A stretch of 64,000 nt of DNA from a virus. Taxonomy: Duplodnaviria > Caudoviricetes. The translations under genes and the position numbers were made by a program. The notes below the pieces were generated by a model, which was not told where the DNA came from, ran no database searches, and saw only the letters and a program-made list of their open reading frames with translations. Numbering within the stretch: position 1 is the first letter of the stretch; every line of letters begins with the position of its first letter. Location of the stretch: IMG/VR virus record IMGVR_UViG_3300029288_000060, positions 64,001 to 128,000 of that record; one strand, 5' to 3'. Below, in pieces: positions 13,406 through 41,289 of the stretch.

Positions 13406-13495
13406 TGGGGCAGGAGGTAGGACTTGAACCTACAATTGTTGGTTTCTCGTTTTATCGAGCCGGCTCCCATGCGCTTCCATTAGGCGACTCCTGCC
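13406..13495 (-). tRNA. tRNA-like RNA: His-type acceptor (G-1:C73), encoded CCA, aberrant anticodon arm
   Basis: GCAGGAG/CUCCUGC acceptor + C73 + CCA; T arm GUAGG-UUCAAGU-CCUAC; D loop AAUGGA; no 7-nt anticodon loop. Confidence 0.7.
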
Positions 13496-21614: not shown

Positions 21615-22472
21615 ATGAGTCTAGTTAAATGTATGATATGTGAAAAAGAATATAAAAGTTTAAAAGGAATTTCAACACACATTATTGTTCATAAGATCAC
21701 AGCTTATGAATATTATGAAAAATTCTTAAAAAAAGAAAATGAAGGTGTGTGTTTAAATCATGGTAAAGTTAAAGATTGTAAAAAAGATACTACATGGATA
21801 AATATGGTTGTTGGTTATCATAAATATTGTAGCGTAAAATGTATGACTAAATCTGACAACTTTAGAAAAATGTCTTCAGAATCAAAAAAAGGTGATAAAC
21901 ACTGGTTAAAGAAAGAAGGTAATATACATCCAAATAAAAATAAAACTTATGAAGAAATTTATGGATTAGAAAAAGCAAAACAATTAAAAGAAAATTTATC
22001 ATGGTTAGGTAAACAATTAACTGGTTTAAAAAATCCATTCTATAATCATAATCATACAAACAAAACTCGTGAAATTCTTAGAAATAACAAACTTGGAAAA
22101 ACAAACATTGAATTATATGGGTGCGATAAAGCAAAAGAAATTAAATTAAAACAATCAAAACCACAGAAAAAACCTTGGTTATCAGAAAACAATCAACTTT
22201 ATACTTCGAAATTTTACAATAAAAAATTTAGAAAACAAATTCTCATAGATCAAAATATGTTATGTGGTTATTGTAGTTGCAAACTGTTTAAGAATTATAG
22301 ACATTTGCATCATATAAATTTCATAAAATGTGATGATAGAAGAGAAAATTTAATTTATTTATGTCCATCATGTCATGGTAAAACAAAAAATAGAGTAATA
22401 TATAAAGAAACCATGAAATTTTTAAATGATAGAAATCAAATGATTTTAGAATCTGTAAACAAGAAAGGTTAA
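21615..22472 (+). CDS. Free-standing HNH homing endonuclease
   Basis: N-terminal C2H2 finger, NUMOD3-like NPFYNHNHT, C-terminal CGYC...HHINF...NLIYLCPSCH. Confidence 0.85.
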   Translation: MSLVKCMICEKEYKSLKGISTHIIVHKITAYEYYEKFLKKENEGVCLNHGKVKDCKKDTTWINMVVGYHKYCSVKCMTKSDNFRKMSSESKKGDKHWLKKEGNIHPNKNKTYEEIYGLEKAKQLKENLSWLGKQLTGLKNPFYNHNHTNKTREILRNNKLGKTNIELYGCDKAKEIKLKQSKPQKKPWLSENNQLYTSKFYNKKFRKQILIDQNMLCGYCSCKLFKNYRHLHHINFIKCDDRRENLIYLCPSCHGKTKNRVIYKETMKFLNDRNQMILESVNKKG

Positions 22473-22518: not shown

Positions 22519-24772
22519 ATGTCAAACGTATCACCAGGGGTAGATCTTTAAAAGAATATGCCCTCTTAATAGGAATAGAAAACTATTAAGTAATAAACTG
22601 GGTGAATTGCTGGAACGCTAAATCAATATTTTTTGATATGCCAATCAGCAGCTAAGCTCATCGAATAAGGATTTTTGTAGATGAGAAAGTTCAGAGACTA
22701 GACAGTGAGGATCCTTAAACCAATAATCTGTCAAACAGCGCCCAGTACTCAAACTCTAATAGAGATGAGTAAAGATATAGTCCAAGCTTATAGGAAACTA
22801 TAAGGGATAGAACTAGTATTCAAAAATAATAGATCTCAGTAGCTATGTTCAATCAGTTCCTAGTACAATTGGTTGTATAATGGCATTAACTAGGAAAGGT
22901 AGAGATAATCAGTTTACGTTTGTAGGGTCAAGAGCAGAATTAATTTCTGGTTGGGGCGAACCTAATATTAATGACTATGGTAAAAACTATGGTCAAGGTT
23001 TGTACGAAGCATACAACTTTTTAGGAGAATCTGGAGCTCTTTATTTTCAGAGGTGTTTACCAGACGATGCATCATTTTCAAATATTAAAATTAACGCAGA
23101 TTTAGCGGTTTCTGACGCAACTGCAATTATTTCAGTAACATATGTTGATAGTTTAAATACAATTGATGAAATTCAAACTGCCCTTGTTTCTGCAGGAACT
23201 ACTTATCCAATTTGTATTTTATATCCTATCGGAAGAGGTGAATATTATAATCAGATTGGCGTAAGATTCACTGAATATTCTAACCCTATGATAAGTGGTG
23301 TTTATGTTATGGATATTTATGAAAAACAATCTGATGGAGATGATGTAATCATTGAATCATTTGAAGTTTCATTTGATCCAAAATCTACTGATTCATCTGG
23401 AGATTCAATTTTTATTGGCTACATTTTGGAAATGTATTCTTCAGTTTTAAGATGTGAAATGACATTAGCGTCTGGTGCTTATACATCTGGTTATGAATTG
23501 GTTGCAAAAATTTACGATAAGGATATAGGAAGTGTATCAGTTACTGAAACTACAGCAACCGCAGAGATTAGTGATAATAAACAAGTATTTACAGATTGGG
23601 AAACTACTCCAGAAACTGGTAATGCTACGTATATGGTTGTTGCAAAAGACGGAAAAGGAAATATTTTATATGGTTGGTTAGGAGCAGCAACAGGAACTGA
23701 TTTTGACCATGTTAATGTTTTTGATGGAAGAAATTTGACCACAGCTTCAAGAGGATGGGTAGGAGATACAAGTGCTTTTGATACATCTAGCACAATTACT
23801 TATGAAGTTAAAAAATCTAATTCTTCAATTGCAGATCCTTTTATATCTTCAACTCCAGTTCCTTTAAAGAAAGGGTCAGATGGAACTCTTTTAGATGCAT
23901 CTGGAGACTTAGATACCACAGTTGCCACACAGGTTTTGGCAGAAGGTTATGCAGGAACTTTAACTAATCCTATAACTGGAATTACAGAGGATGCAATTAC
24001 AGATACAGAAAATGTTTATTTTACAATGACTTTTGATGGAGGTTACCCTTCCAGCGTAAAACAACAAATTTCTACGTTAGTTCAAACAAGAAGGGATGGA
24101 GTAGCAATTCTTGATAATGGAGATAACTCTTCATACAATATTGCAATTGCTTCTAGAACAAATACAAATACTTATAATAACTATTACACTGCTCTTTATG
24201 AAGAATATAATAAAGTTTATGATATTTTTACAGGTCAAGATATTTGGGTAAGTCCTGTTTATCATATGGCGTATATTCTTCCAAGAAATGACACTGTTGC
24301 AGAACTTTGGTATGCTGCAGCTGGTTTTAATAGAGCAGCAATTGACACAATTAAAGAACTTAGATTTAATCCAAAATTGGGTCAGAGAGATGGAATGTAT
24401 TTAAAACAATTAAACCCAATAGTGAAATTTAGTAATGGTTATACTGTTTGGGGTCAATTAACAAGTCAGGCAAAACCATCTGCTTTACAGGATTTAAATA
24501 TTGTTAGATTAGTTTTATATTGCAAAAAGAGCATTGAAAATTTTGCAAGATATTTTGTATTTGAAATGAATGACCAAATTACATGGAATAAATTCAATAA
24601 TGAAGTAGTGGGTTTCTTAGAAGAAATTAAGAGAAAAAGAGGTCTTTACTCATTTAATGTTAATACCTATGCCACAGACTATATGAAAAAGACGAAGACA
24701 TTCACTTGCGATATTGAGCTATACCCGGTCCGGACAGTAGAAAAAATTGAATTAAATTTCTTTATTAAGTAA
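22519..24772 (+). CDS. Tail sheath protein, intron-split (exon 1 22519-22541, exon 2 22816-24772)
   Basis: Spliced N-terminus MSNVSPGVYSKIIDLS is the canonical sheath start; C-terminal WYAAAGFNRA, NPI, VWGQLT, LNIVRL, FVFEMND. Confidence 0.9.
22542..22815 (+). mobile_element. Group I intron (ORF-less, 274 nt) in tail sheath gene
   Basis: P GAATTGCTGGAA, Q AATCAGCAG, R TCAGAGACTA, S AAGATATAGTCC; P1 GGGGU/GCCCU; P9 CTTATAG-GAAA-CTATAAG. 3' boundary uncertain by 1 nt. Confidence 0.9.
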
Positions 24773-24842: not shown

Positions 24843-26924
24843 ATGATACAATGTCAAATATGTAAAAAAGAATTTGAAAAACCATCAAGTTTAGTTTCAC
24901 ATCTAAGTAATCCAAAAGGAAATTGTAAAATTTCAATAAAAGAATATTACGATAAATATTTAAGAAAAGAAAATGAGGGTATATGTCAGGTATGTAAAAA
25001 AGAAACATATTTTGCAGGAATAGTACAAGGTTATCCAACTACTGTTTGTAAATATTGCAAGAGCAAATTAGAAAAAACAAAATTATTAAAAAAGATAAAC
25101 AGCGGCAAAAAAAGAGAAATGTTAGATAAAGAAAAAGAAGTAAAAAAAATAAATGATGGTTACTATGATTTTCCTATTCAATGTGAATTATGTAAGGAAT
25201 CAAACTCAATTTACAAATGTAAAACATATAAAGCTTTATCAACACATTTAAGATTTATTCATCCACAAACAACAATAAAAGAATATTATGATAAGTATCT
25301 CAAAAAAGAAAATGAGGGTATATGTCCAATTACTGGAAAACAAACTAATTTTAAAAATTTAAGAGAGGGGTATTTTGTATATAAAAATAAAGGAACTTGT
25401 GTAAAAGATTCTATTATAATTAAAAAATCTAAAGATACAATTTTTAAAAATCATGGGGTAACTGCCCCAACATATGTAAATACAGAACAAAGAGTAAGAA
25501 ATTATAAAAATACAGTTAAAAAAAGAATTGACTTAAATAATGAAAGAATTAACTTAATTAGTTTACTAAGAAAATTAACTATTGATAAAACAAACAAAAA
25601 CCAATGTCAAATATGTGGAAGAATATTTAGAGATACAAATCAATTAGGCTTGCATATTAAGATTCATAACATCAAAATAAAAGAGTATTATGATATATTT
25701 TTCAAAAAAGAAAATGAAGGGTTATGCCCAATTTCAAATCTAGAGACCAATTTTGATTCTTTAGAAAGAGGATATTTTAAATATCATAAATTATTTATTA
25801 CTTATACTGATGAAATTAAAAATGGAAATAAAAAAAGAAGAATAGATTATATTCAAGAAAAGATAAAAATGTTTGAAAATATATTTGATGTTCAATTTAT
25901 TGATCTAAAAGATATCGAACATATTGGAGATTTAACAAGAATTAAATGTAATAAATGCGGAACTATTTACAAAAATAGATTTACAAATTTAATTTCTGGA
26001 TTTGGAAAATGTGAAAGATGCAATCCAAGAAACAATCATAGATCAAGTCATGAAAAAGAAATGTATGAAACTATAAAAACTTTTATGAAAGATGAAATTG
26101 TTTTAAATAATTGTAAGCAAATAATAAAGAATCCAAATACAGGAAACAATCTTGAATTAGACATATATATTCCAAGTAAAAAAATAGCAATTGAATTTAA
26201 CGGATTGTATTGGCATTCTGAATTGATTTTAAACGAAAAAGCTGAGCGATATCATTTTACTAAATGGAATGAATGTAAAAAAGAGGGAATACAACTTATT
26301 CAAATTTTTGAGGACGAGTGGTATGAAAAGAAAGATATAGTACTATCAATGATAAAACATAAATTAGGTTATAATTCAAACAAAGTTATTTACGCAAGAA
26401 AATGTATAATCAAAGAAATTACGTCAAATGAAAAAAATAATTTTTTAGATTCCAATCATATTCAAGGAAGAGATTTATCTAAAATAAAATTGGGCGCTTT
26501 TTATGATAATAAATTAGTTGCTGTTATGACTTTTGGTTTAGGAAATATTTCTAGGGGTGGCAATCCATATGATTTAGAAAAGTGGGAGTTGTCAAGATTT
26601 GTTACAAAAAAAGAATACCATGTAATTGGAATAGCAGGGAAATTATTAGAATATTTTAAGAAAAATTACCATTGGAAAGAAATTTATAGCTATGCTGATT
26701 TAAGAATTAGTAATGGTAATTTATACAAAAAATTAGGATTTAATCTTATAAAACAAAATCCGCCAAATTATTTTTATGTATGGCAAACTAAACGAATTCA
26801 TAGATTTAATTTAAGGAAAACATTATCAGAACCAGAAAATATTCCAGAATGGAGATTACGCCTAGATCAAGGATATTATAGAATCTGGGATTGTGGTAAC
26901 TTAAAATTTAGTTTAACAAAATAA
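24843..26924 (+). CDS. Free-standing homing endonuclease (zinc-finger repeats + PD-(D/E)XK/Vsr-like domain)
   Basis: Three IKEYYD...KENEG.C modules; ELDIYIP...AIEFNGLYWHS; YARKC...FLDSNHIQG...IWDCG tail. Confidence 0.8.
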   Translation: MIQCQICKKEFEKPSSLVSHLSNPKGNCKISIKEYYDKYLRKENEGICQVCKKETYFAGIVQGYPTTVCKYCKSKLEKTKLLKKINSGKKREMLDKEKEVKKINDGYYDFPIQCELCKESNSIYKCKTYKALSTHLRFIHPQTTIKEYYDKYLKKENEGICPITGKQTNFKNLREGYFVYKNKGTCVKDSIIIKKSKDTIFKNHGVTAPTYVNTEQRVRNYKNTVKKRIDLNNERINLISLLRKLTIDKTNKNQCQICGRIFRDTNQLGLHIKIHNIKIKEYYDIFFKKENEGLCPISNLETNFDSLERGYFKYHKLFITYTDEIKNGNKKRRIDYIQEKIKMFENIFDVQFIDLKDIEHIGDLTRIKCNKCGTIYKNRFTNLISGFGKCERCNPRNNHRSSHEKEMYETIKTFMKDEIVLNNCKQIIKNPNTGNNLELDIYIPSKKIAIEFNGLYWHSELILNEKAERYHFTKWNECKKEGIQLIQIFEDEWYEKKDIVLSMIKHKLGYNSNKVIYARKCIIKEITSNEKNNFLDSNHIQGRDLSKIKLGAFYDNKLVAVMTFGLGNISRGGNPYDLEKWELSRFVTKKEYHVIGIAGKLLEYFKKNYHWKEIYSYADLRISNGNLYKKLGFNLIKQNPPNYFYVWQTKRIHRFNLRKTLSEPENIPEWRLRLDQGYYRIWDCGNLKFSLTK

Positions 26925-40296: not shown

Positions 40297-41289
40297 ATGC
40301 GCTACAGTTTTGCAGCACTTGGAGAAAATATTCTAACAAGAAAATTTGGTAAGTAAAACTGCCACTTATAGAAGAAATTCTATTCGAAAACTCCTCTAAT
40401 TCAGGGAAACTCCAGTTCATAAAATTGGACAATCCTGATCGAAGCTTTGAAGAAATTCAAAGAACGAGCAACGACTATCTCGAAAGAGAGTAGACTCAAG
40501 TGAGTCGAAACGGGGAGGACCTTAACTTTTTATACCAAAAAAGAAAGGTCGTGATATAGTCTCAACTTAATGGTAACATTAAGCAGCTTGAATAAAGCGG
40601 GTAAGAATTAACGACTCTTGCTGAAGAAATTGGGAACTTCTGTTGGCGTTGCCGACCCGTATATCACTGGGTATCATTTTGTATGGTTCGACATATTACC
40701 ACCAAGCTTAATAAATTTTACTAATGGTTTTAACAGTGGAATCGGCTCTGTCGGAGAAATTCAAAACATTTTAGCCGCGTCTTGCTTAAGCGTAACACCT
40801 CCAGGTGGGACTCTTGGTAAAGTAGAGTTTGCAGGGCTGGGTGGTGTAAAATGGTCTGTGCCATCAAATGTTGACTACGGTACAGAAGTTTCTGTAAAGT
40901 TCTTAGAATTTAATAGAACACCAATTTTGGATATTATGTCTGGTTGGGTAAAATTAATTCGTGACTACAGAACAGGTGTGACTGATTTAGTTGATGGCGA
41001 TGATGGTAGTGGGTATACCAAGAAAACATATTCAGGATTAATGTATTACTGGACCACAGCTCCTGATGCTCAAACAGTTGAATTCTTTGCTTGTTATGAT
41101 GGAGTTTTTCCAACTAAAGATCCAGCAGATTTATTTTCAAGTGATGTGGAAACTGTTGGACGTCTTGACATTGAAATTCCTTTTAATGTTGATTATACCT
41201 GGAGAGAACCTTGGGTAAAAGCAAAATGTCAGAGCTTAGCAGCTACTTTTATGACAGCTAAAGAAACAGTAAAACAATATCACTATTAA
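40297..41289 (+). CDS. Tail tube protein, intron-split (exon 1 40297-40350, exon 2 40633-41289)
   Basis: AGGAGG RBS; spliced MRYSFAALGENILTRKFG|GTSVGVADPY; tube-like features (GVFPT, F.VD); position before gp26/gp25-like genes. Confidence 0.7.
40351..40632 (+). mobile_element. Group I intron (ORF-less, 282 nt) in tail tube gene
   Basis: 5' site after U (UGGU/GCCA P1), P AATTCAGGGAA, Q AATCCTGA, R ACGACTA, S GATATAGTC, terminal G; removal restores the frame. Confidence 0.9.

What the first reader, a model, noticed from the sequence alone, without database searches (positions are those of the whole stretch)
22519..22830. Group I intron in the tail sheath gene that appears to end in A, not omega-G
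Seen: a full P/Q/R/S core. P1 places the 5' splice site after U22541 (GGGGU pairing GCCCU). The conserved sheath sequence SPGVYSKIID is then restored only if exon 2 begins at G22816 (GT+G TAT), which makes A22815 the last intron base. Splicing after G22816 shifts the frame and stops within 4 codons. The guide GAAUAU pairs contiguously with GUAUUC (P10) only in the omega-A register, and AG after P7 can pair with CU just before A22815 (P9.0). The P7 G-binding pair looks canonical. Established: terminal G is near-universal in group I introns; omega-A is known from some coral mitochondrial ND5 introns. Alternatives are a 5' site shifted to after A22542, or a 1-nt assembly error.
Basis: partly seen in the sequence, partly recalled or inferred. 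Interest (0 to 1): 0.75.

Follow-up and report, generated by a model that had tools for sequence, protein, structure and literature searches.

The report
Phage sheath-gene intron ending in A
A self-splicing (group I) intron in the tail sheath gene of an uncultured giant phage has an A where its five closest relatives, and nearly all such introns, have the final G; this is a rare but already known oddity, not yet checked against reads or RNA.

Summary
Rfam finds a group I intron at 22532-22804 (100.8 bits). It splits the only tail sheath gene of a 268.8-kb AT-rich phage record after the second base of Val codon 8. The conserved SPGV|YSKIID is restored only by U22541|...A22815| or by A22542|...G22816|. 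The fully canonical pair, U22541 with G22816, shifts the frame.

I found five homologous introns at the same site in related sheath genes (L204, L196, L194, L195, L202). All five splice canonically (GGGGU|...G|N), between bases 2 and 3 of the Val codon. In the alignment A22815 falls in their omega-G column and G22816 in their +1 column. The nearest relative (L204, 86% identical, same guide) reads G|A where the window reads A|G. All core helices are intact in the window, and P7, with its G-C guanosine-binding pair, is invariant.

Best reading (about 0.6): a genuine omega-A intron. Rivals are a wrong or defective base (0.2) and both splice sites slid by one base (0.13).

Omega-A is published for hexacoral ND5-717 and a Coxiella 23S intron. 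Earlier notes of this scan report it in other phage genomes; I did not check those.

The parts
21615..22472 (+). Free-standing HNH endonuclease gene (285 aa) that ends 47 nt before the sheath ATG
   Evidence: phrog_589 HNH endonuclease, E 6e-8; no Pfam hit at E 0.001. Homologous ORFs lie just upstream of the same intron in L204 (63% identity), L196 (58%) and L202 (41%).
22519..22541 (+). Tail sheath exon 1: ATG to the second base of Val codon 8 (MSNVSPG + GU)
   Evidence: The same N-terminus and upstream AGGAA-type ribosome-binding region occur in intron-less relatives.
22537..22564 (+). P1 hairpin: 5' exon GGGGU pairs with GCCCU (22560-22564); U22541.G22560 is the wobble pair at the 5' splice site
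   Evidence: Pair table; conserved in all six family members.
22554..22559 (+). Guide segment GAAUAU, which pairs with exon 2 GUAUUC (22816-22821) as P10
   Evidence: six standard pairs in the window. The first pair (guide base with +1) is a standard pair in every member.
22542..22815 (+). Group I intron, 274 nt, no ORF, with P1-P9 plus P7.1
   Evidence: Rfam 100.8 bits. All helices are intact, with compensatory changes across the family in P2, P4, P5, P5a, P6a, P7.1, P8 and P9.
22694..22700 (+). P7 5' strand (GAGACUA, with A22695 bulged); G22696 belongs to the guanosine-binding pair
   Evidence: Pairs with 22778-22783; invariant in the five introns tabulated. My alignment to the Tetrahymena numbering is from memory.
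22778..22783 (+). P7 3' strand (UAGUCC); C22782 pairs with G22696
22815..22815 (+). Omega position: A where the five sister introns have G
   Evidence: Alignments. The column reads A/G/G/G/G/G.
22816..24772 (+). Tail sheath exon 2: third base of the Val codon, then YSKIIDLS... to the stop
   Evidence: PHROG tail sheath, E 6e-63; Pfam Phage_sheath_1C. It is the only sheath gene in the held record.

Best explanation
This is a mobile, ORF-less subgroup-IA-type group I intron. It sits between the second and third base of Val codon 8 of the phage's only tail sheath gene.

The proposed splicing path is as follows. The 5' exon end GGGGU pairs with the guide GCCCU, and exogenous G cleaves after U22541 at the U.G wobble. 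The guide segment GAAUAU then holds exon 2 (GUAUUC) in a 6-bp P10. The exons are joined after A22815, giving GGG GUG UAU. The intron therefore ends in A at the position where its five sister introns end in G, although its guanosine pocket is the ordinary G-C pair.

Inferred, not shown: 3' site choice here depends mainly on P10 (and perhaps a G-C-containing P9.0) rather than on binding of a terminal G, so the adjacent G22816 is not used.

Shown: the intron, its intact core, the frame logic, and the homology of the insertion site. Inferred: that A22815 is the true base, and that ligation happens there.
For: Rfam hit of 100.8 bits.

Only two junctions restore SPGV|YSKIID, a motif that is contiguous in 75 intron-less relatives.

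Five homologous introns at the same site are 62-86% identical to the window's intron: L204, L196, L194, L195 and L202. All have GGGGU|..G|N, and their wobble G lies in the same alignment column. A22815 aligns with their omega-G and G22816 with their +1 base.

The guide base next to the wobble G pairs with +1 in all six members. That pair changes on both sides between the window (U.G) and most relatives (G-C).

All core helices are intact in the window, and this is the only sheath gene in the held record, so the gene must be expressed through this intron.

Logan's separate assembly of run SRR22315503 carries an HNH identical over residues 7-285, with the same 121-nt and 408-nt gene spacings. 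This argues against an assembler-specific indel. Whether that run is a different sample from the window's is not known.

Neighbouring genes have the same lengths as in relatives.

Precedent: omega-A introns are spliced exactly in vivo in hexacoral ND5-717 (PMC6545197, PMC8146996), and a self-splicing Coxiella 23S intron 'lacks the canonical omegaG' (I saw only the title, in the reference lists).
Against: The base at 22815 could not be checked against reads, and no RNA junction could be seen.

Only this one genome shows the A, so its conservation is unknown.

The pocket is the unchanged G-C pair. From my own knowledge, in Tetrahymena a terminal A then blocks exon ligation unless the pocket is changed to A-U (Michel et al. 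1989; Been and Perrotta 1991).

A G lies immediately 3' of the A and should compete for the pocket.

Against L204, this reading needs two adjacent substitutions (GA to AG), whereas the rival alignment needs a single 1-nt loss.

The window's tail ..AACUAG resembles L202's ..AACAG|, which ends in omega-G.

The junction codon would be GUG, which makes up only 59 of 880 Val codons in the window's long ORFs.
Confidence: 0.6

Rival explanations
1. The A is not the working base. Either the assembly is wrong here, or the assembled variant is defective. The true base could be G at 22815, giving CUG|G UAU. Alternatively one base could be missing after G22816, giving CUAG|A UAU as in L204. Either way the functional phage has an ordinary U|..G| intron.
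For: One substitution (A22815 to G), or one restored base after 22816, makes every feature canonical. The second repair reproduces L204's G|AUAUUC exactly. All five sisters and the genome's second intron (U40350|..G40632|) are canonical. The pocket shows no adaptation to A. No reads could be inspected.
Against: The surrounding genes are intact and match relatives in length. A separate Logan assembly with the identical HNH has the identical 408-nt distance from the HNH stop to the sheath ATG, which speaks against an indel artefact. From general knowledge, a consensus error at one particular base of a good assembly is rare, and a lethal variant is unlikely to dominate a 268-kb assembly.
Confidence: 0.2
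2. Both splice sites have slid one base 3'. Cleavage would occur after A22542, at an A-U pair next to the intact U.G wobble, and ligation after a normal omega-G at 22816. The mRNA would read GGGGUA|UAUUC, identical to L204's spliced mRNA.
For: This gives the same protein and an equally contiguous P1 (GGGGUA/UGCCCU) plus P10 (UAUUC/GAAUA). It keeps omega-G for an unchanged G-C pocket. Relative to L204 it needs only the loss of the +1 A, which equals intron base 1. L202 may have a P9.0 separated from omega-G by one unpaired A, the same layout as AG/CU + A22815 + G22816. GUA is a common Val codon and GUG is rare.
Against: The wobble G is in the same alignment column in all six introns, and the five sisters cleave after that U. 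From my own knowledge, the U.G wobble specifies the cleavage site and Watson-Crick pairs there react poorly (Doudna et al. 1989; Barfod and Cech 1989). I know of no natural precedent for cleavage one base 3' of an intact wobble.
Confidence: 0.13
3. Splicing uses the canonical bases (U22541 and G22816), and a -1 ribosomal slip on CAA AAA UAA restores the sheath frame, giving ..GVIQKIIDLS...
For: That junction produces A AAA A followed by two stop codons. A -1 slip of tRNA-Lys at that point re-enters the sheath frame (my reading).
Against: It would replace the conserved Tyr/Phe of SPGV(Y/F), while the YS codons are preserved in the sheath frame. Slippage would limit the supply of a protein needed in many copies. 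No stimulatory structure was looked for.
Confidence: 0.02

Closest known systems
Sister introns at the same sheath site in uncultured phages: L204 (Logan SRR27686862), L196 (Logan SRR16951079), L194 (GCA_043955465.1), L195 (ENA ERZ27298648), L202/L203 (JGI 3300017971 and 3300028840)
   Same: Same insertion point (GU^N of the Val codon), the same P1 (GGGGU.G), an identical P7, and 62-86% sequence identity. An HNH homologue lies upstream in L204, L196 and L202.
   Different: All five end in G. The window has A at that column and G at +1, whereas L204 has G|A.
Hexacoral mitochondrial ND5-717 group I intron (PMC6545197, PMC8146996)
   Same: The terminal base is A instead of the near-universal G, yet the exons are joined exactly in vivo.
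   Different: It is organellar, obligatory and vertically inherited, carries genes in P8, and is back-spliced in corallimorpharians. The window's intron is a small, sporadically distributed phage intron with omega-G sisters, and its splicing is untested.
Coxiella burnetii 23S rRNA intron Cbu.L1917 (Raghavan et al. 2007, J Bacteriol 189:6572)
   Same: A bacterial self-splicing group I intron that lacks the canonical omega-G, according to the paper's title as seen in the reference lists.
   Different: Its host gene is rRNA, not a phage structural protein gene. I could not read the paper, so the details are unverified.
Phage subgroup IA2 introns (T4 td, nrdB, nrdD; Staphylococcus phage Twort orf142)
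   Same: The same conserved core sequences (R and S elements), an insertion between P7 and P3', and a GNRA-capped P9 that the window shares with over 100 IMG/VR phage introns. The comparison with T4 and Twort themselves is from my own knowledge.
   Different: Those introns end in G. Many of the related IMG/VR introns have an extra hairpin after P9 that the window lacks.
Engineered Tetrahymena ribozyme mutants G414A and G264A:C311U (Michel et al. 1989; Been and Perrotta 1991; from my own knowledge)
   Same: A terminal A at the 3' splice site.
   Different: In those mutants a terminal A works only when the pocket pair is changed to A-U. Here the pocket remains G-C.

Membership tests
Group I intron (Rfam RF00028) | Covariance-model score above the curated gathering score | tested here: met
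   100.8 bits against a threshold of 50, E 6e-25, full model 1-253.
Group I intron (Rfam RF00028) | P1 with a U.G wobble at the 5' splice site, formed with an internal guide | tested here: met
   U22541.G22560 within GGGGU/GCCCU; conserved in all six family members.
Group I intron (Rfam RF00028) | Core helices P3-P9 supported by covariation | tested here: met
   All helices pair in the window. Both-sided changes across the family occur in P2, P4, P5, P5a, P6a, P7.1, P8 and P9.
Group I intron (Rfam RF00028) | G-C guanosine-binding pair in P7 | tested here: met
   G22696-C22782 lies next to the bulged A22695. P7 is invariant in the five introns tabulated. My mapping to Tetrahymena G264-C311 is from memory.
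Group I intron (Rfam RF00028) | Terminal guanosine (omega-G) at the 3' splice site | tested here: not met
   A22815 occupies the omega-G column of five sister introns. G22816 could serve only if the 5' site also shifts.
Group I intron (Rfam RF00028) | Self-splicing with exact exon ligation | not testable with these tools
Subgroup IA (IA2-like) phage introns | Extra helices (P7.1/P7.2) between P7 and the 3' strand of P3 | tested here: inconclusive
   A 5-bp P7.1 (22701-05 with 22728-32) shows compensatory changes. No second helix was resolved, and no formal subgroup classification was run.
Natural omega-A group I introns (ND5-717, Cbu.L1917) | A at the position homologous to omega-G | tested here: met
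   Alignment to five omega-G homologues, provided the assembled base is correct.
Natural omega-A group I introns (ND5-717, Cbu.L1917) | Exons ligated 3' of that A in RNA | not testable with these tools
Collaborative homing (ORF-less intron with a neighbouring free-standing endonuclease) | Endonuclease gene adjacent to the intron, and linked to it in relatives | tested here: met
   HNH (phrog_589) at 21615-22472. Homologues lie upstream of the same intron in L204, L196 and L202. No homologue was detected for L194's upstream ORF.
Collaborative homing (ORF-less intron with a neighbouring free-standing endonuclease) | The enzyme cuts intron-less sheath alleles near the insertion site | not testable with these tools
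   Needs a cleavage assay.

The most novel reading that the evidence does not exclude
Both splice sites have slid by one base. The ribozyme would cleave after A22542, at a Watson-Crick A-U pair directly 3' of an intact U.G wobble, and ligate after G22816. This would rescue a 1-nt loss at the exon-2 start by donating the identical first intron base to the mRNA. To my knowledge it would be the first natural group I intron whose 5' site is not set by its own wobble pair.
Probability: 0.12. Interest if true: 0.8.

Novelty: new member of a known kind. Interest (0 to 1): 0.5.

Why it matters
If the A is real, this locus is a natural matched set. Six homologous ribozymes sit at one site with an identical guanosine pocket. 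Five end in G and one ends in A, and that A is followed directly by a G which must be ignored. The nearest pair (window and L204) differ at the junction only by AG versus GA.

Such a set allows a clean test of how much 3' splice-site choice in phage group I introns depends on G binding and how much on the guide pairings P10 and P9.0. It could also test whether a terminal A has a use. PMC8146996 suggests it may suppress 3'-site hydrolysis and intron circularisation.

The practical point is annotation. Gene callers start this sheath gene at the internal Met codon at 22880 (a 630-aa product), and rule-based intron annotation would place the 3' end at G22816 and so break the frame.

Tried and rejected

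Close copies of the intron: four exact-pattern scans of IMG/VR found nothing, and two scans of genome contigs found nothing. A looser family pattern found nothing in IMG/VR and one unrelated-context intron, L200, in metagenome contigs.

The sheath ORF's 90% cluster has a single member.

No DNA was available for P0012 or P0084 (630-aa sheath calls, probably intron-bearing). None was available for the same-strain Logan contig of SRR22315503 either.

L201, L197 and L198 proved intron-less at the Val site.

A blastn search of INPHARED phages matched only a short core segment inside DNA polymerase introns.

Among 114 IMG/VR introns sharing the S-P9 motif, none was close enough to inform the 3' end.

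P9.0 was rejected as a discriminator because its register varies within the family. Val codon usage was judged too weak to decide anything.

The Raghavan 2007 and Hicks 2011 Coxiella papers, and a Minnick and Raghavan 2011 review tried in their place, are not held. The only held paper that mentions the JCL1032 intron says nothing about its terminal base.

Alternative 5' sites after U22545 or U22548 were rejected. No guide pairing with a wobble G exists for them, and they would insert residues between V and Y that are never seen in relatives.

Full report
WHAT IS THERE

The window is bases 64001-128000 of a 268,812-bp IMG/VR virus record. The record is estimated 74% complete and has about 28% G+C.

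Rfam's group I intron model matches 22532-22804 on the + strand at 100.8 bits (gathering score 50, E 6e-25) over the whole model.

The downstream frame encodes a tail sheath protein: PHROG tail sheath, E 6e-63, and Pfam Phage_sheath_1C. It is the only sheath gene in the held record.

The ORF upstream (21615-22472) is an HNH endonuclease (phrog_589).

FRAME LOGIC

The sheath ATG is at 22519 and exon 1 reads ATG..CCA GGG GT(A). In the exon-2 frame a TAG at 22814-22816 closes the frame upstream.

Joining U22541 to G22816, or A22542 to U22817, gives MSNVSPGVYSKIIDLS in both cases. Joining the two canonical bases (U22541 and the base after G22816) gives ..GVIQK and two stops.

In 75 of the 77 related IMG/VR sheath loci that reach the gene start, the sequence ..SPGV(Y/F)(S/T)K.. 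is contiguous. All four Val codons occur among them.

SISTER INTRONS, THE KEY NEW EVIDENCE

A protein search with the truncated 630-aa gene call returned close relatives of exactly the same length. I fetched the contigs behind several hits and inspected them, and five introns at the same site emerged:

- L194 (83% sheath identity)
- L195 (82%)
- L196 (77%)
- L202/L203 (66%)
- L204, found through homologues of the upstream HNH (HNH 63% identical)

All five read GGGGU|intron..G|N, with N the third base of the Val codon (C, U, C, C, A). Each then translates to ..SPGVY(S/T)KIID...

Intron identity to the window is 86% for L204, 77% for L196, 72% for L195, 70% for L194 and 62% for L202.

In every alignment A22815 falls in the omega-G column and G22816 in the +1 column. 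L204 has the same guide (GAAUAU-GCCCU) and the same first intron base (A). It reads ..UUUG|AUAUUC where the window reads ..ACUA|GUAUUC.

STRUCTURE

A pair table over five of the introns (L204 had not yet been fetched) shows that all helices pair in the window: P1, P2, P3, P4, P5/5a, P6/6a, P7, P7.1, P8 and P9. There are both-sided compensatory changes in most of them. P7 is invariant, including the G-C pair next to the bulged A. The ribozyme core therefore looks functional and shows no adaptation of the guanosine pocket.

The guide base 5' of the wobble G pairs with the first intron base and with the +1 exon base in every member. The +1 pair is U.G in the window, G-C or G.U in the tabulated relatives, and U-A in L204 (by eye).

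- U22559 can pair with G22816 or with A22542. P1/P10 contiguity therefore also holds for the slid register.
- P9.0 in the omega=22815 register gives two pairs in the window, L196 and L195, one in L194 and L204, and none in L202.
- L202 could instead form GU/AC with one unpaired A before its omega-G. That is the layout the window would have if G22816 were omega.

WEIGHING THE READINGS

(a) A real omega-A spliced at U22541/A22815. This keeps the 5' site at the conserved wobble and the junction at the homologous place. It needs one unusual change (omega G to A) plus a neutral A-to-G change at +1. It has published precedent:

- Hexacoral ND5-717 ends in A and is spliced exactly in vivo (PMC6545197, PMC8146996).
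- A self-splicing Coxiella 23S intron lacks omega-G. I could verify only the title, from reference lists.

Against it are the unchanged G-C pocket and the adjacent G, which should compete for that pocket.

(b) Slid sites, A22542|..G22816|. This keeps omega-G and needs only the loss of the +1 A relative to L204. It requires cleavage one base 3' of an intact wobble whose position is fixed across the family. I know of no natural precedent for that.

(c) A wrong or defective base. One substitution at 22815, or one restored base after 22816, would make everything canonical.

Three observations speak against an indel artefact:

- The flanking genes are intact and match relatives in length.
- A separate Logan assembly with the identical HNH has identical 121-nt and 408-nt spacings.
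- The genome's second intron (U40350|..G40632|) is canonical.

(d) Rescue of the canonical-base product by frameshifting would destroy the conserved Tyr, so it is unlikely.

My odds are (a) 0.6, (c) 0.2, (b) 0.13, (d) 0.02, with the remainder unassigned.

MOBILITY

The intron is patchily distributed among sheath relatives. The closest sheath proteins, at 85-86% identity, are full length (659 aa) and so presumably uninterrupted, or carry only a second-site intron. Relatives at 83%, 82%, 77% and 66% carry the Val-site intron.

HNH homologues sit directly upstream of it in L204, L196 and L202. This fits homing driven by a neighbouring free-standing endonuclease, but that is an inference.

COMPARISON AND NOVELTY

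This is a phage IA-type group I intron in a structural gene, which is a known kind. It carries the rare, already published terminal-A variant.

Earlier notes of this scan report terminal-A introns in several other phage genomes, and one of them claims RNA support. I did not test those notes and used them only as leads, including the lead to the Coxiella paper.

What is specific here is the matched family with omega-G sisters, and the G immediately after the A.

Noticed in passing
L195:844-1500: The sheath gene of this ENA contig carries two group I introns separated by a 19-nt mini-exon (C UAU UCA AAG AUC AUC GAU). The first is the Val-site intron (867-1140). The second (1160-1455) follows the GAU of ..IID. 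Removing both gives MSNVSPGVYSKIIDLSAYVQ. [quoted passage not shown]
   Followed up: partly
L015:2682-3000; also L024, L197, L198: A second, related intron site lies 21 nt downstream, after the GAU of ..KIID. It has canonical U|..G| boundaries and occurs in several sheath relatives that lack the Val-site intron.
   Followed up: partly
window 40351-40632: A second ORF-less group I intron (92.4 bits) splits a virion structural protein gene (MRYSFAALGENILTRKFG|GTSVGV..). The whole-window cmscan at gathering threshold did not list it, although genome search and a locus cmscan did.
   Followed up: partly
L038:3001-5774 and L039:3001-5774: The sheath match spans 2774 nt instead of about 1950 nt, which implies an insertion of roughly 820 nt inside the gene. 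No Rfam family reached its gathering score in these loci.
   Followed up: no
window 24843-26924: The 693-aa ORF after the sheath gene combines C2H2-type zinc-finger repeats with a Mom-like/GNAT-like C-terminal region. ORFs of 692-693 aa sit in the same position in L196 and L197.
   Followed up: no
window 13409-13494 (- strand): A weak tRNA hit (31.7 bits, gathering score 29) with a 29-nt insertion where the anticodon arm should be.
   Followed up: no
L200:520-1000 (- strand): An intron with the same S element and J7/9 (..GUCCAAA..) on metagenome contig VYLG01000111.1, in a different sequence context. Its tail reads ..AAUUAG followed by CGCUC. I did not determine its exons or splice sites.
   Followed up: no
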